A DNA stretch of 64,000 nt from Pseudomonadota bacterium (lineage in GTDB: Bacteria; Campylobacterota; Campylobacteria; Campylobacterales; Campylobacteraceae): NCBI GenBank assembly GCA_002746565.1, contig PDPI01000023.1:16037-80036 (forward strand). Direction: 5' to 3'. This document shows positions 1 through 63,648 of this stretch, in pieces. The first letter of the stretch is position 1. Each line of letters starts with the position of its first letter. Both the position numbers and the translations under genes were made by a program. The notes below the pieces were generated by a model. The model saw only the letters and a program-made list of their open reading frames with translations, ran no database searches and was not told the DNA's origin.

Positions 1-771
1 AGTGGAAAAGGTACTTTACAAGATCTCAAAAAAGCCTTTTACTGGACTAAAAAATCGGCAAAACAAGGCGATGTTGGTGCGCAATACAATCTAGGACTTA
101 TGTACAACAATGGAAAGGGCATTTTAAAAGATCCAAAAAAAGCCCTCTATTGGTATGAAAAATCAGCAAAACAAGGTGATGTTAAGGCGCAACATAATCT
201 AGCAATAATGTATCACAATGGAAGAGGTACTCTAAAAAATCTTAAAAAAGCATTTTATTGGTATGAAAAATCAGCAAAACAAGGTCACGCTAAGGCGCAA
301 AATAATTTAGGAATAATGTATCGCACAGGAGAAGGCACTTTAAAAGATTTTAAGAAGGCTTTTTATTGGACTAAAAAATCAGCTCAACAAGGTGACGCTA
401 CAGCACAAAACAATCTAGGAATAATGTACCTCACAGGAGAAGGTACTTTAAAAGATTTTAAAAAGGCTTTTTATTGGTATGAAAAGTCAGCTCAACAAGC
501 TCATCCTAGTGCACAATACAATTTAGGATTTATGTATCAAAATGGGAAAGGCACTTTAAAAGATTTTAAAAAGGCTTTTTATTGGTATGAAAAATCAGCA
601 AAACAAGGTGATGCTAGTGCACAATACAATCTAGGGATTATGTGTATTTATGGGGAGGGAACTTTAGTGGATAAAAAGCGGGCAGCTTATTGGATAGAGC
701 AAGCATATAAAAATAACTATCCAAAAGCCCAAAGAATCTGGAACAAATACGAACTTTGGAAATATAAATAA
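1..771 (+). CDS. Sel1-like (TPR-family) repeat protein; 5' end lies outside the window
   Basis: Frame 1 is open from nt 1. At least 7 tandem 36-aa units carry the Sel1 signature (GxGTLKDxKKAFYWYEKSAxQGxAxAQxNLGxMY). Stop codon at 769-771. Confidence 0.85.
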   Translation, partial: SGKGTLQDLKKAFYWTKKSAKQGDVGAQYNLGLMYNNGKGILKDPKKALYWYEKSAKQGDVKAQHNLAIMYHNGRGTLKNLKKAFYWYEKSAKQGHAKAQNNLGIMYRTGEGTLKDFKKAFYWTKKSAQQGDATAQNNLGIMYLTGEGTLKDFKKAFYWYEKSAQQAHPSAQYNLGFMYQNGKGTLKDFKKAFYWYEKSAKQGDASAQYNLGIMCIYGEGTLVDKKRAAYWIEQAYKNNYPKAQRIWNKYELWKYK

Positions 772-1963: not shown

Positions 1964-2505
1964 TTAGTATAAAAGCTGATTTTTTACTTCCACATAGACA
2001 TCTTCTCCACATAAAACCTCAACTATAAACAAAGCAAACTCCATCGCCGTTGCAGGTCCTTGGGAAGTAATGATGTTTTCATATATGAGAACCCTATCTT
2101 CTTTGCTGTATCCATCAAGCCCTATCACATCTTCAAAGCTAGGATAGCATGTATAATACTTTTTCAAAACACCCGCTTTTGCCAAAGCTAAAGGGGCAGC
2201 ACAAATGGCAGCTATATATTTTTTCTTTTTATCAAATTTTTTAGTAGATCTAAAACCATCTCGCTTTTGGCTAAAATCTGGGCATTTGGAAGACCTCCTG
2301 GAAGAATTATCATATCAAATTCACTCTCTACGACATCTTTTAGTAAAATTTCAGCCTTTATTCTAATATCATGGGCACCTTTCACCTCTAAACTATCAAG
2401 CCCAGCTAAAACAACTTCTACTCCAGCTCGTCTTAAAATATCAACCAAACTAACAGTTTCTATCTCTTCAAAACCTTCACTTATGGGAATTAAAACTTTT
2501 TTCAT
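1964..2505 (-). pseudogene. DJ-1/PfpI (YajL/ThiJ-like) family gene split by a frameshift
   Basis: Two ORFs (2212-2505 and 1964-2185) together form one DJ-1 protein. The second frame stays open upstream and reads KKFDKKKKYIAAICAAPLALAKAG, which includes the nucleophile-elbow Cys. The junction is best explained by a +/-1 change in the T6 run at 2237-2242. Confidence 0.7.
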
Positions 2506-2570: not shown

Positions 2571-2687
2571 GGTACTGAATAAATAGAGATTTAGTCAGTA
2601 CCGAAAACGGATTACGAAAAACAGATAACTAGTAGGGTAGGCATTTTTTCAAAATGCTATTTATTTTTATGTTATTTAGTCGGTGCC
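2571..2687 (+). repeat. dispersed structured element, copy 1 (full length)
   Basis: Hairpin H1 GGTACTGAATAAAT-AGAG-ATTTAGTCAGTACC, 4 GAWWACN heptamers, H2 GGCATTTT-TTC-AAAATGCT, a T-rich tail and terminal GTCGGTGCC. Aligns with 6 other copies. Confidence 0.9.
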
Positions 2688-4046
2688 ATATGGGGTACTA
2701 ATTAAATCGTACACCAAAATAATATTTTCATCTTCTAACTCAAGCAAATCTTTCGTAAAACCGCTCTTGCTAAAAAGATAATACTTTTCAATGGGCAAAT
2801 CACTTTTTATAAATCTAGCCTTTTGTTTTAAGCTCTCTAAAATATCAAGTCCAACTTTTTTATTGCTATATTTACACTCGCCAACTATCAAAGAATTTTG
2901 AGTTATGCCTACTAGATCTATTTCATGGTCTTTATCCCACCATCGACCGCATTTTAGCACCTTAGAATTTTTCTTTACATATTCAATGGCTAGATTTTCA
3001 TACACAAAGGAGATATAGGAGCTAAAATTTTGTTTTATTATTTTAGTAACATAGTGTTTATTTTCCATCTCAAGCCATGTTTTGTAGGGCAAAACATAAC
3101 AAAACCAAAATCTAAAAAAATTATCCTTTATAAAATATAAACTTTTGCGGCTTTTTAGGGGATTTTTTTCGGTTATGGGAACATCCTTATAAACAAGATC
3201 AAGTTCAATTAGTTTATTGATATACGGGGATATGGCTTGAGTTGTTTTTTCAAGCCTACTTGCTATGTGGCTTAATTTGTGAGCACCACTGGCTATATTT
3301 TCTAGTATTGAAAAATACGTAATCTGCTCTGAAACTTCCCCTTGTAGGATAAATTGAGGCTCATTGTACAAAAAACTATTTACTTCAAGGATATTTTCCT
3401 CTATGCCTTTAAATATATCAGCTTTTTCTTTGAACATATTAAGATATTTTGGAACCCCATGGAGTACGCTGTAAAGCTCTATAAGTTCGATTTGGCTTTT
3501 GTTTGGAAAAAATTCATGTATATGTTCAAACTTTATAGCTTCGAGTTTTATGGAACTTGTTCGGCGTCCATATAGGGGCGAGTTATAAGATAGGGTTTGA
3601 TCATGCATCATGGATATAATAGACCCACAAAATATGAGGTGAATATTTTTATTTTCTAAAAATTCATCACATATGTATTGAAATTGGGATGGAATGGATG
3701 GATCTTGTTTGGCTAGATACTGAAATTCATCAATGGCTATAACTAGTTTTTTATCAAAACTTTTTGAACTAATATATCTAAAAAGTTGAGTAAAATTTTC
3801 AAACCTTATCTCTCTCAAGATTTCATCATCAAAATAATCAGCAAATATGCCCTGAAATCTCTTTAAAAGAATAGAGATATTTTCAAGACTTGCTAAAAAA
3901 TACAAAGATGGCTTATCTTTCATAAACTCTCTAAGAAGTGCAGTTTTACCAACCCTGCGCCTGCCATAAAGAATGGTAGATGTAAATTGATCTAAAGCAT
4001 ATTCGCTGTTTAAAATCCCCAATTCTTTTTGTCTATTTACAAACAA
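2676..4046 (-). CDS. AAA+ ATPase (archaeal-ATPase-like) with wHTH and a C-terminal DUF234/PD-(D/E)xK-like domain
   Basis: 456 aa. Walker A GRRRVGKT, Walker B LVIAIDEFQ, C-terminal HEIDLVG...VGECKYS. TTG start with AAGGAG 5 nt upstream. The last 3 codons and the stop lie inside repeat copy 1. Confidence 0.8.
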   Translation of the reverse strand: MFVNRQKELGILNSEYALDQFTSTILYGRRRVGKTALLREFMKDKPSLYFLASLENISILLKRFQGIFADYFDDEILREIRFENFTQLFRYISSKSFDKKLVIAIDEFQYLAKQDPSIPSQFQYICDEFLENKNIHLIFCGSIISMMHDQTLSYNSPLYGRRTSSIKLEAIKFEHIHEFFPNKSQIELIELYSVLHGVPKYLNMFKEKADIFKGIEENILEVNSFLYNEPQFILQGEVSEQITYFSILENIASGAHKLSHIASRLEKTTQAISPYINKLIELDLVYKDVPITEKNPLKSRKSLYFIKDNFFRFWFCYVLPYKTWLEMENKHYVTKIIKQNFSSYISFVYENLAIEYVKKNSKVLKCGRWWDKDHEIDLVGITQNSLIVGECKYSNKKVGLDILESLKQKARFIKSDLPIEKYYLFSKSGFTKDLLELEDENIILVYDLISTPYGTD

Positions 4047-4134: not shown

Positions 4135-4234
4135 GGCACTGACGAAATGGCATAAAAATAAATGGCATTTTGTAAAAATGCTTACTTTAACTAGCTATCT
4201 GTTTTCCGCTTTCCGTAATCCCTTTTCGGCACTG
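4135..4234 (-). repeat. dispersed structured element, copy 2 (short form lacking the 5' arm of H1)
   Basis: The reverse complement aligns from CAGTGCCGAAAAGGGATTACGG through GCATTTT-TAC-AAAATGC to GTCAGTGCC. Confidence 0.9.
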
Positions 4235-4258
4235 CTTTCTAAAAAATTAAGTTTTTTA

Positions 4259-9481: not shown

Positions 9482-10945
9482 TTAAAGATGTGGATATATA
9501 AAATCAATCCAAGGTATGCCAATTATGACGAAAATAAATAGATAAATAATACCAAATATAGCTCCTAATCTCCAAAAATCAGGCCCTTTGATATAATGAC
9601 TTGCAAACCATACGGGACTATGTCCAGTTGCATAGGGGGTTAAAACTCCCATTAAACCCATTGGTAAAAGCAAAATTAGCATAACCTTACTAGGATCAAT
9701 CCCAGGAATACCTTGCAAAAGAACAGCAAAAAGTCCCACAACTGCCGTAGTATAAGCTGTACCTGAAGCAAAGAAATATCTTAGGGCTGAAAATGCTATG
9801 AGCAAACCGATAATTACCACATTTGTATCCAAACTCTTAACATAATCTCCACTCATTCCCGCTAACCAAGCCAAAAATCCAACATTTTTAAGACCTCCTG
9901 CCATGGTAACTAAGGTTCCAAACCAAACAAGCACATTCCATGCTCCTTTATTGCTTAGAAAATCACTCCATTTTATAACATGTGTTGCTATCATCAATAT
10001 CACAACCATAAAAGCTGTGGTGGTAGAGTGAATGCCAAAATACTTACCTCCTATCCAAAAGACAAGAGCAAATAAAGATATAAGAAGCATTGAAAGCTCA
10101 ACGCCTTTCATCTTGCCTAGATTTTTATACTCTTCCTTTGCCCAAAGGGCTATTTTTTCAGATTTTTTTATCTCTGGTGGATAGATGATGTAGGCAAGTA
10201 GGGGCGTTAGTAAAAACAACACTATTCCCACTGGCAAAAACGCTAAAAACCAACCAGCCCAGCCTACCACTGGAGTACCTGCTTTGGCAGCAAGTTCAGC
10301 AGCAAGGGGATTTGGTGCTTGTCCTGTTAAAAATACCGAACTGGTTACACAAGTTGCCGCTAATGCTGTCCATGCTAGGTAAGAGCCTATTTTTCGTGCA
10401 TCTTTTTCTGGATAGCTTCCAAACATGGGTGGAATACTAGTTATAATAGGATATAAAATTCCTCCACTTCTAGCGGCATTACTAGGAACAAATGGCGATA
10501 AGATACCATCACTTATGGCTATTGCATAGCCCAGTCCAAGGGTGGATTTGCCGATTTTGCTAACGAGAAAAAGTGCTATTCTTTTTCCTAAGCCGCTTTT
10601 TTGATACCCAAGACCTATCATGAAAGCTACAAAGATAAGCCAAACGACCGAATTTGAAAAGCCACTAAGTCCCCACTTTAGGGCCTTTCCTCCCGATATG
10701 ACAAGATCATCTTTTCCAGATCCAACCGGACCAACCTTTAGTAAAACTGCCGTAGTTATGGCTATAACACCTATAAATGCGGGCGGAATGGGCTCTAGTA
10801 TTAGCCCAACGATTAGGGCGGCAAATATACTTGCATATATCCAAGCATTAAGGCTTAATTGGGCTGGAGTAGGAAGAAAAAATACTGCCAAGCCAACAAC
10901 AATCGGTACAATCAATTTGATTTTGTTTGCATCTTGAAAAACCAT
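9482..10945 (-). CDS. DASS-family anion/dicarboxylate:Na+ symporter (CitT/TtdT-like)
   Basis: 487 aa polytopic protein with a SNAARSGG hairpin-type motif typical of DASS carriers. Confidence 0.8.
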   Translation of the reverse strand: MVFQDANKIKLIVPIVVGLAVFFLPTPAQLSLNAWIYASIFAALIVGLILEPIPPAFIGVIAITTAVLLKVGPVGSGKDDLVISGGKALKWGLSGFSNSVVWLIFVAFMIGLGYQKSGLGKRIALFLVSKIGKSTLGLGYAIAISDGILSPFVPSNAARSGGILYPIITSIPPMFGSYPEKDARKIGSYLAWTALAATCVTSSVFLTGQAPNPLAAELAAKAGTPVVGWAGWFLAFLPVGIVLFLLTPLLAYIIYPPEIKKSEKIALWAKEEYKNLGKMKGVELSMLLISLFALVFWIGGKYFGIHSTTTAFMVVILMIATHVIKWSDFLSNKGAWNVLVWFGTLVTMAGGLKNVGFLAWLAGMSGDYVKSLDTNVVIIGLLIAFSALRYFFASGTAYTTAVVGLFAVLLQGIPGIDPSKVMLILLLPMGLMGVLTPYATGHSPVWFASHYIKGPDFWRLGAIFGIIYLFIFVIIGIPWIDFIYPHL

Positions 10946-11160
10946 GTCAACTCCTTTATTGGTTATTATACAATTATATTATAATAATTATAAGAAAAAG
11001 ATAAAATTATCTATGAAAAATCATGGATAAATCATTGAAATAATCCATATAAAATGAATAAAAAATATAAAATATAGCTTTAAAATTTACAACATATTTG
11101 GTATAAAAAATATAGAGAAGAAAAACTTTTATTAAAAGGTGAAAAATTTATTACATAAAG

Positions 11161-11274
11161 GGCGCTAAGTAAATAACATAAAAAGGCATTTTGTGAAAAT
11201 GCTTACCTTACTAGTTATCTGTTTTCTGTAATCCGTTTTCAGCATTGACCAAATCCCCACTTAGTCAGTGCCAT
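11161..11274 (-). mobile_element. dispersed structured element, copy 3 (full length, flanked by a perfect 6-bp direct repeat)
   Basis: The reverse complement reads AT-GGCACTGACTAAGT-GGGG-ATTTGGTCAATGCT, then 4 heptamers and GCATTTT-CAC-AAAATGC. ATAAAG occurs at 11155-11160 and again at 11275-11280. Confidence 0.85.
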
Positions 11275-11310
11275 ATAAAGATAATCCATGGAAATGAAAA
11301 TTTCCATGGA
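11275..11310 (-). terminator. intrinsic terminator downstream of serA
   Basis: Perfect 11-bp stem TCCATGGAAAT/ATTTCCATGGA (11285-11295 / 11300-11310) with a 4-nt loop, followed on the minus strand by TTATCTTTAT. Confidence 0.6.
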
Positions 11311-11319
11311 CAGATTGTT

Positions 11320-23191: not shown

Positions 23192-23317
23192 ATGGCACTG
23201 ACTAAATGGGGATTTACTCAGTGCCGAAAACGGATTACAGATTACGGAAAACAGATAACTAGTAAGGTAAGCATTTTTTCAAAATGCCATTTATTTTTAT
23301 GTTATTTTGTCAGTGCC
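23192..23317 (+). mobile_element. dispersed structured element, copy 4 (archetype, full length)
   Basis: AT, then H1 at 23194-23225, 5 heptamers at 23226-23260, H2 at 23271-23287, a T-rich tail and GTCAGTGCC at 23309-23317. Flanked by TTCCCA (23186-23191) and TTCCAA (23318-23323). Confidence 0.9.
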
Positions 23318-23381
23318 TTCCAAATGAGATATATATTTTACAAAAAAATGATATAATAGCCCAAAAAATAAGGAGAAAAAT

Positions 23382-23738
23382 ATGACAATATTTGAAAAAA
23401 TCGTGGCAGGGGAGATTCCATGCAACAAGGTCTTGGAAAATGATGATTTTTTAGCCTTCCATGACATAAATCCAAAGGCTCCCATTCATATTCTTATTAT
23501 CCCAAAGGTTTGTATTAAGGATTTTGAAGAGGTCAGCCCTGAAGTTATGGCCGGACTTACTAGCTTTACCCAAGAGCTTACAAAACTTTTAGGTTTAGAT
23601 AAAAATGGGTATAGATTGATTACAAATATAGGTAAAGATGGAGGACAAGAGGTTCCCCACTTGCATTTTCATTTGCTAGGTGGAGCAAAGCTTATATGGC
23701 CCCATCTAAGCGATGCAGATCCAAAGGGAAGTTTTTGA
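23382..23738 (+). CDS. HIT-family (Hint-like) nucleotide hydrolase
   Basis: 118 aa with the histidine-triad motif HLHFHLLGG. Confidence 0.9.
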   Translation: MTIFEKIVAGEIPCNKVLENDDFLAFHDINPKAPIHILIIPKVCIKDFEEVSPEVMAGLTSFTQELTKLLGLDKNGYRLITNIGKDGGQEVPHLHFHLLGGAKLIWPHLSDADPKGSF

Positions 23739-23741
23739 TTT

Positions 23742-24506
23742 TCACAGGGGCAAATTTACAAATTCATAATCTTTAAGATCACAAAAAAGTAAGTCTTGAA
23801 AATTAAAATTTTTATTTAACAATAAGTTTATACAAAAGGATGCTTGAAGTGAGGCACAATTTGAAGCAGTAAATGCTAAATTTCCGTATATCTCTTCGGC
23901 TCCTTTTTTATTTGTTTTATAAAGATTTTTTGTTTTTGCGGAAGTGCTAACTTGTAAAACTGAGCCCCCAATGGCTCCGTGAACGAATTTTTTAAAATGT
24001 TTTTCACACCACAAAGCAAGTAGCTTTTTTGTTTTTACATCATCCACGCAGTCAACTACAACATGAGCTTTTTTGAGTAATTTATCTATATTTTTTTCAT
24101 CTAAATACTTTGGTTTTTTGTGAATTTTTAATGCTGGATTTATAAGTAAGAGGTTTTCTTTTAAAACATCTACTTTTTTTACATGTAAAGTATTTAAATT
24201 TGAAAAATTTTGTCGATTTAAATTGTGTTCACAAAAGCTATCCCTATCTATTAGAGTAAGCTTTCCAACTCCAATTCTAGCCAACAACTCCGCCACATTT
24301 CCCCCAAGTCCACCGCATCCAACTATGCAGACATGGGCTTTAAAAAGCCTAAATTGCTCATGTTGGGATATGGTATTTTGATTTCTTTTAAAACGCAAAG
24401 GGGTAAGCCCTTTTTTGAAGACCTTTCTTTCGATTTGCCTAAAAGAGAGCTTAGTTTTTTTTAGTTTTTTTTGATAATATTTCAATGAAACAAATCTTTG
24501 CCCCAT
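23742..24506 (-). CDS. ThiF/MoeB/HesA-family adenylyltransferase (E1-like)
   Basis: 254 aa with the nucleotide loop IVGCGGLGGNVAELLARIGVG and NLNRQ. Its ATG overlaps the upstream stop (ATGA). Confidence 0.8.
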   Translation of the reverse strand: MGQRFVSLKYYQKKLKKTKLSFRQIERKVFKKGLTPLRFKRNQNTISQHEQFRLFKAHVCIVGCGGLGGNVAELLARIGVGKLTLIDRDSFCEHNLNRQNFSNLNTLHVKKVDVLKENLLLINPALKIHKKPKYLDEKNIDKLLKKAHVVVDCVDDVKTKKLLALWCEKHFKKFVHGAIGGSVLQVSTSAKTKNLYKTNKKGAEEIYGNLAFTASNCASLQASFCINLLLNKNFNFQDLLFCDLKDYEFVNLPL

Positions 24507-24736
24507 CAGCCACCGCCAACCTTTGGAAATAGGCTTAAAATATCCCCATCTTGAAGCTCAGTTTGCTCATCTGCATGGCGAGAATTTATCATCAAAACCC
24601 CCAAGGGCAGTTTGTGATTTGCAATACCATACATATCCATCACATCAACTGCCTTTGTTCCTTTTTCTAACTCCAATTCCTTAATCTTAAAAAGATTTTC
24701 GCGATATTGGGCAAAAAGTTTCAGGGTTATTTTCAT
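24506..24736 (-). CDS. MoaD/ThiS-family sulfur-carrier protein (C-terminal GG)
   Basis: 76 aa starting MKITLKLFAQ and ending FPKVGGG. The ATG at 24734-24736 overlaps the AOR stop (ATGA); the track start at 24748 is a less likely alternative. Confidence 0.75.
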   Translation of the reverse strand: MKITLKLFAQYRENLFKIKELELEKGTKAVDVMDMYGIANHKLPLGVLMINSRHADEQTELQDGDILSLFPKVGGG

Positions 24737-26508
24737 GCAAAATTCCAAAACTCATCAATTTCCTTGTTTGTAAAATCCCAAGTTACATTGTGGGGCGGTA
24801 AGGTTTCGTATTTCATAAATTCAGGCATTCTATCATCGGCACTTGTAAATCCAGCTCTTTTATTAAAATCTCTTTCAATTTTTAATATGTTTTTGCCAAG
24901 ATTTGTAACATCATCCCCTGTTAAATTTACACCAAATCTAGCATTTATCATATCAATCAAAGCTGGTAAACATTTTGGATCATCAAGGGCAGGAAAGGCA
25001 ACAAAAATACACATGCCCGTACTATCAACTGCTGCTGATGCTATCTGGAGATTTCTTGAGAGCTCCACTTGTCCATCTTTTTTGAGTGGATCCACATAGC
25101 CACCGCTATTTAGGATATTTGTTGCAACTGCATATCCTGCTGTGTGATCAGCTCCCATGGGAGTGGTAACATAGGTAACACCCTGGCCCTTAACAGCCCT
25201 TGGCTCATAGGCAGGAATGGCTTGATTTTTAACCACTGGCACACGAACTAAACCATAAAGTTTACCTAGATTTCCAGTTCCCCCACCTATGATGCGCCCA
25301 AGAGGAGTACCATTTGCAAGTTCTTCTTTTATGAGTCTGTAAGCCTCTTTTCCATCTCCGTATTTTAAAATACCAGCATCAACAGCTAAACCTAAAGTAA
25401 CACTAGTCTCTATGGTATCAAGTCCTAAATCATCCATAAGAGCGTCTAGTTTTGCTATCAAGTCCAAATCTTTTATGCCTAAATTTGCCCCCATTGCCCA
25501 AATACTTTCATATTCAAAGCCAGAGGTAAGGTATTTTCCTTTTTTGTCATTGTAAACTTGAGAGCATTGTATAACACATCCAGCATGGCATCCGTGAGTT
25601 GTCTTGCCCCCTCTATCTTTAATGTTTTCAGCCATGGTTTCACCGCAAATCTCCTCTGCAAACTCAAAATTTCCTTCCCTAAAATTTCTAGTTGGCAAAC
25701 CGCCAGCTTCGTTGATGATGTTTACCAAAACATTGGTTCCAAAAGCAGGTAATCCCTCGCCACTGATTGGATTTTCTTTTAAGGCTTTAGTGAAGATTTT
25801 ATTTGCTTCTTTAAATTTTTGTGGATCATGCAAGGTCGCTTCTTTATACTTTTCACTATCGATAGTAATACATTTTATCTTTTTTGAACCCATAACGGCT
25901 CCTAAGCCACCACGCCCATGACTTCTTAGCTTGCCTTGTGGGTCTTTTACGGAAACATTAGAGGTTAACATCCTCATCTCCCCAGGTCTTCCTATGCTCA
26001 TAACAGCTACTTTTTTATTGTATTTTTCAAGCATGGAATCTAGTACAAAATAATTATCCTTTCCAACTAACTCGGGACAGGGTGTAAATTCGACCTTATC
26101 TTTTGTTACATGCAAATGGTAAAAATCATCGCCCTCAGGAATATTTTCGATTATCAAAGCTTTAACTCCAAGTTTAGCCATAATTCCAGCACTGGTTCCG
26201 CCTACATTACTTTCTTTAATGCCTCCTGTTAGGGGGCTTTTTGCTCCCAAAGAATTTCTACCAGAATTTGAAGCTGCGGTTCCAGAAAGAAGCCCTGGGC
26301 AAAAAACCATTTTGTTATTTGGTCCTAGTGAATGACACTCTGGGTCAACCTCTTTTGCAACTATGGTAGAAGTTAAACCTCTGCCACCAAGCCCCATCCA
26401 CTCCGTTGGAACATCTTCGATCTTGTAAGTTAGATTTTTCATATCTACTCTGTATATTTTATCTGCCATGGGCAATCCTTTTATTTTGTGATTTAATCCA
26501 TTATACAT
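24733..26508 (-). CDS. aldehyde:ferredoxin oxidoreductase (tungstopterin AOR family)
   Basis: 591 aa with AOR N-terminal and alpha-helical domain patterns (GGRGLTS, GLGAVMGSKK, Cys cluster HGCHAGCVIQC). Confidence 0.85.
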   Translation of the reverse strand: MYNGLNHKIKGLPMADKIYRVDMKNLTYKIEDVPTEWMGLGGRGLTSTIVAKEVDPECHSLGPNNKMVFCPGLLSGTAASNSGRNSLGAKSPLTGGIKESNVGGTSAGIMAKLGVKALIIENIPEGDDFYHLHVTKDKVEFTPCPELVGKDNYFVLDSMLEKYNKKVAVMSIGRPGEMRMLTSNVSVKDPQGKLRSHGRGGLGAVMGSKKIKCITIDSEKYKEATLHDPQKFKEANKIFTKALKENPISGEGLPAFGTNVLVNIINEAGGLPTRNFREGNFEFAEEICGETMAENIKDRGGKTTHGCHAGCVIQCSQVYNDKKGKYLTSGFEYESIWAMGANLGIKDLDLIAKLDALMDDLGLDTIETSVTLGLAVDAGILKYGDGKEAYRLIKEELANGTPLGRIIGGGTGNLGKLYGLVRVPVVKNQAIPAYEPRAVKGQGVTYVTTPMGADHTAGYAVATNILNSGGYVDPLKKDGQVELSRNLQIASAAVDSTGMCIFVAFPALDDPKCLPALIDMINARFGVNLTGDDVTNLGKNILKIERDFNKRAGFTSADDRMPEFMKYETLPPHNVTWDFTNKEIDEFWNFA

Positions 26509-39238: not shown

Positions 39239-39270
39239 TTATACTCAGTTTACTTTAAGGTTTGCTTACG

Positions 39271-39408
39271 TGCACTGGCTAAATGGGGATTTAGCCGGTG
39301 CTGAAAACGGAAAACAGATAACTAGTAAAGTAAGCATTTTTTCAAAATGCCATTTATTTTTATGTTATTTTGTCAGTGTGTAAGGATGGCACTAACTAAA
39401 TCAGTGCC
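39271..39408 (+). repeat. dispersed structured element, copy 5 (3 heptamers plus an extra 3' hairpin)
   Basis: H1 GCACTGGCTAAAT-GGGG-ATTTAGCCGGTGC (13 bp including one G.T), GAAAACG GAAAACA GATAACT, H2, T tail and GTCAGTG. An additional hairpin GGCACT-aactaaatc-AGTGCC lies at 39388-39408. Confidence 0.9.
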
Positions 39409-39437
39409 ATAAAGAGGACCTTTGTAAGCGTTCTAGA

Positions 39438-41824: not shown

Positions 41825-41922
41825 GGCACTGATAAAATAACATAAAAATAAATGGCATTTTGAAAAAATGCTTACTCTACTAGTTATCTGTTTTCTGTAA
41901 TCTGTAATCCGTTTTCGGCACT
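41825..41922 (-). repeat. dispersed structured element, copy 6 (short form lacking the 5' arm of H1)
   Basis: The reverse complement reads AGTGCC-GAAAACG GATTACA GATTACA GAAAACA GATAACT, then GCATTTT-TTC-AAAATGC and ATCAGTGCC. Confidence 0.9.
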
Positions 41923-42027
41923 TAATCATAATTTAACCAACATTCATGTAAAATTCTCTCATCAAAGTGATAAGTAGGGATACGCAAGCCGAACGGACTT
42001 TGAGATAAACAAATTTAGGAGGTTTTT

Positions 42028-42351
42028 ATGAAAAAGATTCTTTTTCTTATGCTAGCGCTTGTTGCTAGTGCATTTGCGGGTGAAGCTGCCGCTCTTAACG
42101 TTGCTAGTGAAACACTAGCTGGATATTCTGTACTTGCTGCGGGTATTGGTCTTGGACTTGCTGCACTAGGAGGTGCGATAGGTATGGGAAATACTGCTGC
42201 TGCAACCATAGCTGGAACCGCAAGAAACCCAGGTCTTGGCGGAAAATTAATGACAACCATGTTTATCGCACTTGCGATGATCGAAGCACAGGTTATTTAC
42301 GCGCTTGTAATTGCTCTTATAGCACTTTACGCTAACCCATTTATAGGCTAA
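42028..42351 (+). CDS. atpE: F0F1 ATP synthase subunit c
   Basis: 107 aa hairpin proteolipid with ARNPGLGGKL and the carboxylate helix IALAMIEAQVIYALVIAL. Confidence 0.95.
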   Translation: MKKILFLMLALVASAFAGEAAALNVASETLAGYSVLAAGIGLGLAALGGAIGMGNTAAATIAGTARNPGLGGKLMTTMFIALAMIEAQVIYALVIALIALYANPFIG

Positions 42352-63497: not shown

Positions 63498-63550
63498 AAT
63501 TTATTCCTTTTATACTATCGTAGTTTATTATATCCTTTTTTATTAAATAT

Positions 63551-63648
63551 GATATAAATAGATGGCATTTTGAAAAAATGCCTACCCTACTAGTCATCCG
63601 TTTTCAGTAATCCGTAATCCGTTTTCAGCACTGACCTCAGTCAGTGCC
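63551..63648 (-). repeat. dispersed structured element, copy 7 (short H1, 3' end degenerate)
   Basis: The reverse complement reads AT-GGCACTGAC-TGAG-GTCAGTGCT, then GAAAACG GATTACG GATTACT GAAAACG GATGACT, then GGCATTTT-TTC-AAAATGCC. The terminal GTCAGTGCC is missing. Confidence 0.85.

What the first reader, a model, noticed from the sequence alone, without database searches (positions are those of the whole stretch)
23192..23317. Seven-copy family of a ~100-125 nt structured intergenic element (MITE-like, possibly also an RNA module)
Seen: the same sequence occurs at 2571-2687(+), 4135-4234(-), 11161-11274(-), 23192-23317(+), 39271-39408(+), 41825-41922(-) and 63551-63648(-), and it accounts for most intergenic gaps above ~130 nt in this window. 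The archetype (copy 4) starts with AT. A 14-bp hairpin H1, GGCACTGACTAAAT-GGGG-ATTTACTCAGTGCC, follows at 23194-23225. Tandem heptamers GAWWACN occupy 23226-23260. A small hairpin H2, GCATTTT-TTC-AAAATGC, lies at 23271-23287. A T-rich tail CATTTATTTTTATGTTATTTT comes next. The terminal GTCAGTGCC (23309-23317) is the exact inverted repeat of the 5' GGCACTGAC. Copies occur in both orientations and in unrelated gene contexts: divergent promoters, gene 3' ends, and upstream of atpE. No transposase, RAYT or IS200/IS605 gene lies in the window. Inference: this is a non-autonomous mobile element mobilised in trans. Because H2 plus the T tract resembles an intrinsic terminator in one orientation only, it may also act as a portable terminator or small-RNA module. 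I do not recognise it as a described repeat family; that is from memory only and needs a database search.
Basis: partly seen in the sequence, partly recalled or inferred. Interest (0 to 1): 0.85.

Follow-up and report, generated by a model that had tools for sequence, protein, structure and literature searches.

The report
New 124-bp MITE family, Campylobacterota
The repeat is real: it is a small non-coding jumping element (a MITE) that left 8-bp target duplications, in an uncultured Campylobacter/Sulfurospirillum-like bacterium. That makes it a new family of a common and well-understood kind of element.

Summary
Seven copies sit at the stated places. A sequence profile (nhmmer) and a covariance model both find exactly these seven copies in the window. 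They find none in about 1.5 Mb from other Campylobacterota.

A conserved core pattern finds 21 more matches. All are in one metagenome assembly, PDWI01 / GCA_002754915.1, which comes from the same sample as the window's organism. The pattern has no match in 185,579 species genomes, viral contigs, plasmids or Rfam.

New evidence settles the kind of element. The canonical unit is 124 bp, from GGCAC to GTGCC. It is flanked directly by 8-bp target-site duplications: two are perfect and five have 7 of 8 matches, against 0 of 272 flank pairs taken from different copies. The 14-bp terminal inverted repeats start GGCACTG, which fits the GGnnnTG signature of the IS6/IS26 and IS1 families. It is therefore a MITE moved by a DDE transposase. 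No transposase was found in any sequence I could read.

The left hairpin H1 has compensatory changes in 6 of 14 pairs. The left and right ends do not co-vary with each other. Length classes of 124, 117, 110 and 103 bp reflect heptamer copy number.

The terminator or small-RNA idea has no support from the consensus scans, Rfam or covariation tests outside H1.

Verdict: a new member of a known kind, of modest interest.

The parts
23194..23317 (+). Copy 4, the archetype: a full 124-bp element close to the family consensus
   Evidence: Covariance model 152.8 bits; sequence read; 95% identical to the copy in L014
23186..23193 (.). Left 8-bp target-site duplication of copy 4 (TTCCCAAT)
   Evidence: Matches the right flank TTCCAAAT at 7 of 8 positions
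23318..23325 (.). Right 8-bp target-site duplication of copy 4 (TTCCAAAT)
23194..23225 (+). H1: the left 14-bp terminal inverted repeat (GGCACTGACTAAAT), a 4-nt loop, and an internal inverted copy of the repeat; forms a hairpin
   Evidence: DNA fold -8.8 and -11.6 kcal/mol on the two strands, z -5.5 and -9.9. Across 20 copies 96% of cells are paired, 6 of 14 pairs have compensatory changes, and 0 of 500 shuffles reach the observed values
23226..23260 (+). Five tandem heptamers (RGAWWAC type); the copy number varies from 2 to 5 among copies
   Evidence: Copies differ by 7-, 14- and 21-nt gaps here, giving lengths of 124, 117, 110-111 and 103 nt. Tandem Repeats Finder does not call the tract
23261..23303 (+). 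Conserved internal core with the small palindrome H2 (GCATTTT-TTC-AAAATGC, 23271-23287) and a T-rich tract
   Evidence: About 5% deviation from consensus per site, but partly because copies were found by a core pattern. The H2 stem is invariant and its loop varies. H2 folds at only -5 kcal/mol
23304..23317 (+). Right 14-bp terminal inverted repeat (ATTTTGTCAGTGCC)
   Evidence: 83% complementary to the left repeat across copies, with no significant covariation. It is the most variable part of the element, at 22% deviation per site
2571..2687 (+). Copy 1 (117 bp, four heptamers). Its right end supplies the last codons and the stop (GGC ACC GAC TAA) of the ATPase/DUF234 gene at 2676-4046 (-)
   Evidence: gene family
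2694..2715 (+). H1-like mini hairpin remnant, 6 nt after the right end of copy 1
4135..4236 (-). Copy 2: the H1 end is degenerate and the right end is intact
   Evidence: 95 bits
11161..11272 (-). Copy 3 (112 bp), between serA and a DASS transporter gene. Flanked by CTTTATAT (11273-11280) and CTTTATGT (11153-11160)
   Evidence: gene families
39271..39380 (+). Copy 5 (110 bp, three heptamers)
39388..39408 (+). H1-like mini hairpin (GGCACTAACTAAATCAGTGCC), 7 nt after the right end of copy 5
41825..41938 (-). Copy 6: the H1 end is degenerate. It lies about 90 nt upstream of atpE (42028-42351, +)
   Evidence: ATP-synt_C domain
63535..63648 (-). Copy 7: H1 is shortened by a symmetric internal deletion and the right end is degenerate. 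Its left end supplies the last three codons and the stop of hemB (GGC ACT GAC TGA)

Best explanation
This is a miniature inverted-repeat transposable element (MITE). The unit is 124 bp and non-coding. It is bounded by 14-bp terminal inverted repeats (GGCACTGACTAAAT ... ATTTAGTCAGTGCC).

Mechanism: a DDE-type transposase encoded elsewhere binds both ends, makes an 8-bp staggered cut in AT-rich, mostly intergenic target DNA, and inserts the element. Repair of the stagger leaves an 8-bp direct duplication on each side.

Shown here: the repeat family, its exact ends, the 8-bp duplications, the lack of any coding capacity, and its restriction to one narrow lineage.

Inferred: the transposase class. 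The ends fit the GGnnnTG, 14-bp-repeat, 8-bp-duplication pattern of the IS6/IS26 and IS1 families, and from memory also the ISPna2 group of IS1595.

The left end is unusual. The terminal repeat is followed after 4 nt by its own inverted copy, so it forms a 14-bp hairpin (H1) whose pairing is kept by compensatory changes. I read this as either selection for a folded end or RNA hairpin, or arm-to-arm correction by template switching. These tools cannot decide between the two.

The internal heptamers expand and contract by slippage. Because the terminal repeat carries stop codons in two of three frames, insertions into the last codons of genes are tolerated.
For: The family is real and multi-copy: 7 copies in the window and 24 in loci from 12 PDWI01 contigs.

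8-bp target duplications abut the ends. They are perfect in L012 (TTAAATTA) and L015 (TATTAATT). They match at 7 of 8 positions in L003, L014, L016 and window copies 3 and 4. In the null of flank pairs taken from different copies, 0 of 272 reach 7 of 8. In the two perfect cases the ninth base does not match, so the length is 8. The copies closest to the consensus (c4, L014, L015, L016) are the ones that keep their duplications.

The terminal inverted repeats are 14 bp and 83% complementary.

The ends fit published signatures. The IS26 terminal repeat is GGCACTGTTGCAAA (PMC7864471). The IS6/IS26 family has 14-bp ends with G1, G2 and G7 conserved and 8-bp duplications, and shares GGnnnTG with IS1 (PMC6807381, PMC7986276). 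IS1 ends read from E. coli are GGTAATGACTCC... and GGTGATGCTGCC....

There is no coding capacity, and no transposase domain in the window or among the 20 ORFs next to PDWI01 copies that I tested. Those are housekeeping genes such as lepA, selB, topA and uvrD.

The window copies lie 3 on the + strand and 4 on the - strand, although GC skew is negative across most of the window. So there is no replication-strand bias.

The copies are 76-96% identical to each other and none are identical. This fits an ageing family derived from a shared source.
Against: No autonomous partner was found.

Only 7 of 18 full copies keep a recognisable duplication.

The match to IS26 and IS1 ends is 9 of 14 positions each. 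The element has TGA where the IS6 family has the conserved TGT.

No empty orthologous site could be shown. The nearest sequenced relatives are only about 73-79% identical in DNA and are rearranged at these sites.

Compensatory changes in H1 are not expected for a plain transposase-binding repeat.
Confidence: 0.8

Rival explanations
1. The element is a MITE that the host has taken over as a functional RNA or regulatory module. H1 plus the conserved core would act as a small RNA, an mRNA-end stabiliser or processing site, a terminator in the + orientation, or an outward promoter from the T-rich 3' end. Copies would then be kept by selection rather than being neutral.
For: H1 pairing is kept by compensatory changes in 6 of 14 pairs, and 0 of 500 shuffles reach the observed values. 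Among single-sided changes in H1, G-U type cells outnumber A-C type cells 13 to 3, which favours the + strand (binomial p 0.02; the cells are not independent). The internal core varies less than the right end, at 5% against 22% deviation per site. Both strands fold better than shuffles, with z about -3.4. Where the two flanking genes run the same way, the H1 end faces the downstream gene's start in 12 cases against 5. In copy 4 the element stops 15 nt upstream of a promoter-like site for the tctC-like gene.
Against: There is no Rfam match. The consensus scans find no terminator-like or promoter-like site inside the two copies scanned. H2 has 2 G-C pairs and folds at -5 kcal/mol. H2 never varies, and the extended stem around it has no significant covariation. 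The copies lie in both orientations relative to their neighbours, and the trend of 12 against 5 is not significant (p 0.14). The low variation of the core is inflated because the PDWI01 copies were found by an exact core pattern. Template switching within palindromes can produce compensatory changes without selection (established knowledge; not tested here). No transcript data exist.
Confidence: 0.15
2. The element is a hairpin-dependent single-strand element of the REP/BIME-RAYT or IS200/IS605 (PATE) type. A Y1/HUH transposase would recognise H1 as folded single-stranded DNA and move the element.
For: The left end has a stable hairpin with compensatory changes, as in REPs. No DDE partner was found.
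Against: Elements of this type do not make target duplications (established knowledge), and here 8-bp duplications abut both ends. The element has true terminal inverted repeats. There is no strand bias in the window, with 3 copies on + and 4 on -. No Y1 transposase domain is present in the window or next to the 20 tested PDWI01 ORFs.
Confidence: 0.04
3. The element is a non-mobile repeated regulatory sequence, spread by recombination or gene conversion, or conserved as a shared operator.
For: It sits in intergenic regions, often 55-120 nt upstream of a start codon. It has a conserved core.
Against: The element has sharp ends with target duplications. It lies in unrelated gene contexts and in both orientations. 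Its ends overlap the 3' ends of genes. It is absent from related Campylobacterota loci.
Confidence: 0.02

Closest known systems
MITEs of the IS6/IS26 family (ISfinder lists MITEBth2 and MITEHarch3) and the IS6/IS26 family ends
   Same: 14-bp terminal inverted repeats that begin GG and have G at position 7 (GGCACTG is identical to the first 7 nt of IS26). 8-bp target duplication. No open reading frame (PMC6807381, PMC7986276, PMC7864471).
   Different: The element has CTGAC-TAAA where the family has the conserved cTGTt-caaa, so only 9 of 14 positions match IS26. It is shorter, at 124 bp against the 227 and 336 bp reported for the family's two MITEs. It has an extra internal copy of the repeat that forms a hairpin. 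No IS6-type transposase was found with it.
IS1 family ends; from memory, also the ISPna2 group of IS1595
   Same: The GGnnnTG tip. 9 of 14 positions are identical to the IS1 end GGTAATGACTCCAA, including TGACT. IS1 makes 8-9 bp duplications and IS1595 makes 8 bp (from memory of the ISfinder family table; PMC6807381 notes that GGnnnTG is shared with IS1).
   Different: IS1 usually duplicates 9 bp and has longer repeats of about 23 bp. No IS1-type or IS1595-type transposase was found.
Correia elements (CREE/NEMIS) of Neisseria
   Same: About 100-150 bp, with terminal inverted repeats. Abundant in intergenic DNA, often close to gene starts and ends. Able to fold as RNA hairpins. Proposed effects on neighbouring gene expression (established knowledge).
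   Different: Correia elements duplicate TA rather than 8 bp. Their repeats are 26 bp and the sequence is unrelated. Their hairpin forms between the two ends, not within one end.
REP/BIME elements with RAYT, and IS200/IS605-derived PATEs
   Same: A short palindromic hairpin kept by compensatory changes. Intergenic and high in copy number.
   Different: Those elements have no terminal inverted repeats of this type and no target duplication, and they show strand bias. All three features were tested here and not met.
RUP and BOX repeats of Streptococcus pneumoniae, and ERIC of enterobacteria
   Same: Small, structured, non-coding intergenic repeats, some with modular length variation (from memory).
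   Different: The sequences and host phyla are unrelated. RUP is linked to IS630 and a TA target (from memory). None has the layout seen here: a hairpin end, a heptamer array, a conserved core and a right terminal repeat.

Membership tests
MITE (non-autonomous DDE-type element) | Short (under about 500 bp) with no coding capacity | tested here: met
   103-125 bp. No ORF fits inside..
MITE (non-autonomous DDE-type element) | Terminal inverted repeats | tested here: met
   14-bp ends, 83% complementary across 20 copies.
MITE (non-autonomous DDE-type element) | Target-site duplication of fixed length flanking the ends | tested here: met
   8 bp. Two are perfect and five match at 7 of 8, out of 18 full copies. 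In mismatched flank pairs 0 of 272 reach 7 of 8.
MITE (non-autonomous DDE-type element) | Multiple dispersed copies in unrelated contexts and in both orientations | tested here: met
   31 copies in the window plus 12 contigs, next to housekeeping genes.
MITE (non-autonomous DDE-type element) | A related autonomous insertion sequence with the same ends in the same or a related genome | not testable with these tools
   None in the window or among the 20 ORFs tested in the PDWI01 loci. The collection scans were exhausted, so the rest of PDWI01 was not searched.
MITE (non-autonomous DDE-type element) | Insertion polymorphism (empty orthologous sites) | tested here: inconclusive
   Relatives (L102-L107) lack the element but are only about 73-79% identical and are rearranged at these sites. 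Exact-protein look-ups found no sister strain.
IS6/IS26 family derivative | 14-bp terminal repeats with G at positions 1, 2 and 7 | tested here: met
   The consensus is GGCACTGACTAAAT. Position 2 is invariant, position 1 is G in 16 of 20 copies and position 7 is G in 17 of 20. Criterion from PMC6807381.
IS6/IS26 family derivative | Conserved internal motifs cTGTt and caaa in the repeat | tested here: not met
   The element has CTGAC and TAAA, so the fully conserved T after TG is A here. Criterion from PMC7986276.
IS6/IS26 family derivative | 8-bp target duplication | tested here: met
   Criterion from PMC7986276.
IS6/IS26 family derivative | Mobilised by an IS6-type DDE transposase (about 220-250 aa, H-HTH domain) | not testable with these tools
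   No candidate gene is present in the accessible sequence.
REP/RAYT or IS200/IS605-type (PATE) | No target duplication; insertion next to a short fixed target | tested here: not met
   8-bp duplications of varied sequence.
REP/RAYT or IS200/IS605-type (PATE) | Hairpin ends kept by compensatory change | tested here: met
   H1 has 6 of 14 pairs with double changes.
REP/RAYT or IS200/IS605-type (PATE) | Strand bias relative to replication | tested here: not met
   3 copies on + and 4 on - in a window where GC skew is negative throughout most of its length.
Rfam RNA families | Score at or above a family's gathering threshold | tested here: not met
   Only a tRNA passes in the window. The best sub-threshold hit over copy 4 scores 18.9 bits against a threshold of 50.
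Intrinsic terminator | G+C-rich stem followed by a T run | tested here: not met
   No site in the two copies scanned (c4 and c6). H2 has 2 G-C pairs and folds at -5 kcal/mol.

The most novel reading that the evidence does not exclude
The element may be more than a selfish MITE. On this reading it is a DDE-type element (8-bp duplications) whose left end must fold as a hairpin to be active. That would combine the two known ways of recognising transposon ends: double-stranded repeats and folded single strands. Alternatively or in addition, its structure-constrained H1, variable heptamer array and conserved core could have been taken over by this uncultured Campylobacterota lineage as a portable regulatory or RNA module placed just upstream of promoters.
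Probability: 0.12. Interest if true: 0.55.

Novelty: new member of a known kind. Interest (0 to 1): 0.3.

Why it matters
MITEs have hardly been described in Campylobacterota. My searches of the held paper library found none for Sulfurospirillum and nothing relevant for Campylobacter.

This family occupies 7 of the 12 longer intergenic gaps in 64 kb. It rewrites the last codons of two genes, hemB and an ATPase gene. It sits at two synteny breaks. It breaks short-read assemblies: the Logan contig L001 ends inside a copy. It is therefore relevant for annotating and binning this lineage.

Its ends give a specific, testable pointer to an IS6/IS1-like partner transposase.

The structure-conserving evolution of one terminal hairpin is a small curiosity for transposon biology.

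None of this changes the general picture. It is a new family of a familiar class.

Tried and rejected
- Rfam, at gathering thresholds over the whole window and at permissive thresholds over copy 4: nothing relevant.
- Core pattern in 185,579 species genomes: no match. In viral contigs, for both the core and H1: no match. blastn against plasmids: no match.
- nhmmer and the covariance model on 86 loci from other Campylobacterota (about 1.5 Mb): no copies.
- Search for an autonomous partner. I ran Pfam and NCBIfam on all window ORFs and on 20 ORFs next to PDWI01 copies. One was a 252-aa ORF flanked by two copies in L004, which turned out to be thioredoxin-like. An all-against-all comparison of the PDWI01 ORFs found no repeated gene that looks like a transposase.
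- Empty-site search. Exact-protein look-ups for TctC, HIT, atpE and SerA found only one short Logan contig from the same strain. The closest HIT homologues (85-90% identity) lie on contigs without conserved gene order at these sites.
- Terminator and promoter reading: no sites inside the two copies scanned.
- Extended stem around H2: no significant covariation.
- Pairing between the left and right ends: no covariation.
- Orientation bias relative to neighbouring genes: the raw counts are 23 against 7 on the H1 side. Where the two flanking genes run the same way, which are the only informative cases, the counts are 12 against 5, which is not significant.
- Provenance. I tried to test whether truncated PDWI01 loci abut the window, without result.
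- Two literature searches were poorly targeted and gave nothing useful.

Full report

Yes. The archetype reads exactly as described. The repeat finder recovers the family on both strands. An alignment of the seven stretches shows a shared unit. A profile search finds seven copies in the window. A covariance model built from 20 full copies, with H1 and H2 as structure, finds the same seven at 95-153 bits and nothing else on the forward strand. GGCACTGAC with up to one mismatch occurs 14 times against 3.9 expected. Seven of the 12 intergenic gaps longer than 130 nt hold a copy.

The corrections are small. The 'AT' at 23192-23193 belongs to the flank. H1 of the archetype has one mismatch. Copy 5 ends at 39380 and is followed by a separate mini hairpin. 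Copies 2 and 6 have degenerate left ends, and copy 7 has a degenerate right end. The gene next to copy 7 is hemB. atpE (42028-42351) is the gene downstream of copy 6.

**2. Host and distribution**

The window has about 35% G+C and is densely packed with housekeeping genes. The SerA protein is at most 70% identical to any of 185,579 species representatives, and the best hits are Campylobacter MAGs. The HIT protein is at most about 79% identical to any homologue that carries an organism name, most of them Sulfurospirillum or Sulfurospirillaceae. The host is therefore an uncultured member of the Campylobacterales.

The conserved core pattern CTAGTARRGTARGCATTTTNNCAAAATGC has no match in the species genomes or in viral contigs. 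It has 21 matches in metagenomes, all on 12 contigs of one assembly, PDWI01, which is GCA_002754915.1. A Logan contig from run SRR6011893 is 100% identical to window 23286-24832 and stops inside copy 4. The same run shares other contigs with PDWI01. So the window's organism lives in that sample.

nhmmer finds 24 copies in the PDWI01 loci. It finds none in 80 Campylobacterota loci or in six loci from the closest relatives. The 20 full-length copies are on average 86% identical to each other (range 76-96%). None are identical, and window and PDWI01 copies intermix.

**3. What it is**

Aligning all copies with their flanks fixes the ends at GGCAC...GTGCC. The canonical length is 124 bp.

Directly outside these ends lie 8-bp direct repeats:
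- TTAAATTA in L012 and TATTAATT in L015, both perfect.
- 7 of 8 matches in L003, L014, L016 and window copies 3 and 4 (CTTTATAT / CTTTATGT and TTCCCAAT / TTCCAAAT).
- When left flanks are paired with right flanks of other copies, 0 of 272 pairs reach 7 of 8.

The copies nearest the consensus are the ones that keep the duplication, as expected if duplications decay with age.

Fixed-length duplications of varied, AT-rich sequence are the footprint of a staggered cut by a DDE transposase. The ends are 14-bp inverted repeats. The element has no ORF. No transposase, integrase or Y1 domain occurs in the window or among 20 ORFs next to PDWI01 copies, which are genes such as lepA, selB, topA, uvrD and peroxiredoxin. 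This is a MITE.

**4. Which transposase?**

The tip GGCACTG equals the first 7 nt of the IS26 terminal repeat GGCACTGTTGCAAA (PMC7864471). The IS6/IS26 family is defined by 14-bp ends with G at positions 1, 2 and 7 and by 8-bp duplications, and it shares GGnnnTG with IS1 (PMC6807381, PMC7986276). IS1 ends read from an E. coli copy are GGTAATGACTCCAA and GGTGATGCTGCCAA. The element matches IS26 and IS1 at 9 of 14 positions each.

It lacks the conserved TGT of IS6 ends, so I do not file it as an IS6 derivative. I only say that it has ends of the GGnnnTG type. From memory, the ISPna2 group of IS1595 (GGCnnTG, 8 bp) also fits.

**5. Internal anatomy**

H1 is the left repeat plus its own inverted copy, separated by 4 nt. 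Across 20 copies, 96% of cells pair and 6 of 14 pairs show compensatory double changes. These include a transversion pair (G-C to U-A in L011) as well as transition pairs to A-U, U-A, C-G and G-C. No shuffle out of 500 reaches the observed values. Copy 7 even carries a symmetric deletion that keeps the palindrome.

By contrast, the left and right ends do not co-vary. The right end is the most variable part of the element. That comparison is biased: I selected copies with an intact H1, and the PDWI01 copies were found through a core pattern.

H2 never varies, so it says nothing about structure. The extended stem that RNAalifold proposes around it is not supported.

The heptamer tract varies from 2 to 5 units, giving lengths of 124, 117, 110 and 103 nt. 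This fits slippage. Tandem Repeats Finder does not call it.

**6. Function beyond mobility**

The terminator idea fails the simple test in the two copies scanned. H2 has two G-C pairs and folds at -5 kcal/mol. No promoter-like site lies inside those copies.

Three hints remain:
- The pairing in H1 is maintained.
- Single-sided changes in H1 favour G-U over A-C by 13 to 3 on the + strand (p 0.02; the cells are not independent).
- The H1 end tends to face a gene start at about 55-120 nt. This is not significant where the two flanking genes run the same way (12 against 5, p 0.14).

In copy 4 the element ends 15 nt upstream of a promoter-like site for the neighbouring gene. This suggests that insertions are simply tolerated just outside core promoters.

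The terminal repeat holds stop codons in two frames. hemB and an ATPase gene both now end in G-T-D-stop, encoded by the element. I rate an added host function at about 0.15.

**7. Rivals**

A REP/RAYT or IS200/IS605-type element is contradicted by the duplications, by the inverted ends, by the absence of strand bias (3 on +, 4 on -) and by the absence of Y1 genes. A non-mobile regulatory repeat is contradicted by the sharp ends with duplications and by the unrelated contexts.

**8. Novelty**

I found no match in Rfam, plasmids, viral contigs or species genomes, and nothing in the searchable literature on MITEs in Sulfurospirillum or Campylobacter. ISfinder and Dfam could not be queried.

It is a new family of a well-known class, and its left end has an uncommon hairpin that is conserved in structure. 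Interest is modest.

Noticed in passing
window 63637-63648 and 2676-2687: The terminal repeat carries stop codons in two of three frames. hemB and the ATPase/DUF234 gene both end in G-T-D-stop (GGC ACT GAC TGA and GGC ACC GAC TAA) encoded by element ends, so the insertions replaced the native C-termini of these genes.
   Followed up: partly
window 2694-2715 and 39388-39408; L003 about 1184-1203: H1-like mini hairpins of 21-22 nt (for example GGCACTAACTAAATCAGTGCC) lie 6-7 nt beyond the right ends of copies 1 and 5. A similar remnant follows the target duplication in L003. They could be remnants of older copies, or a sign that the element tends to insert next to existing ends.
   Followed up: partly
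window 1967-2505: The DJ-1/PfpI gene is split into two overlapping ORFs. ORF 2212-2505 holds profile positions 1-94 and ORF 1967-2314 holds positions 86-164. This is a frameshift or pseudogene right next to copy 1.
   Followed up: no
window 4-735: A 108-nt tandem repeat (five or more units, 70-79% alike) is the coding sequence of a Sel1-repeat protein (36 aa per unit). It is unrelated to the finding.
   Followed up: yes
window 9482-11319 compared with L069; window 39239-39437 compared with L102: Two copies sit at breaks in gene order. In Arcobacter vandammei, serA is followed directly by efp, whereas the window has copy 3 plus a DASS transporter gene between them. A relative from the same sample (PDWI01000480.1) has a solute-binding protein gene where the window has copy 5.
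   Followed up: partly
L018 607-776; L006 about 640-700; L004 6492-7502: Tandem, partial and internally deleted copies occur next to full ones in the PDWI01 loci. In L004 two copies flank a thioredoxin-like gene.
   Followed up: partly
L019 2559-4053: Two paralogous small ORFs, 74% identical with weak zinc-finger/HypA-like hits, flank a copy of the element. This may be a local duplication.
   Followed up: no
L102, L106 (PDWI01000480.1, PDWI01006026.1): The same metagenome holds at least two further related Campylobacterales populations, with HIT proteins 89% and 85% identical to the window's. Their sampled loci (about 30 kb) carry no copy of the element.
   Followed up: partly
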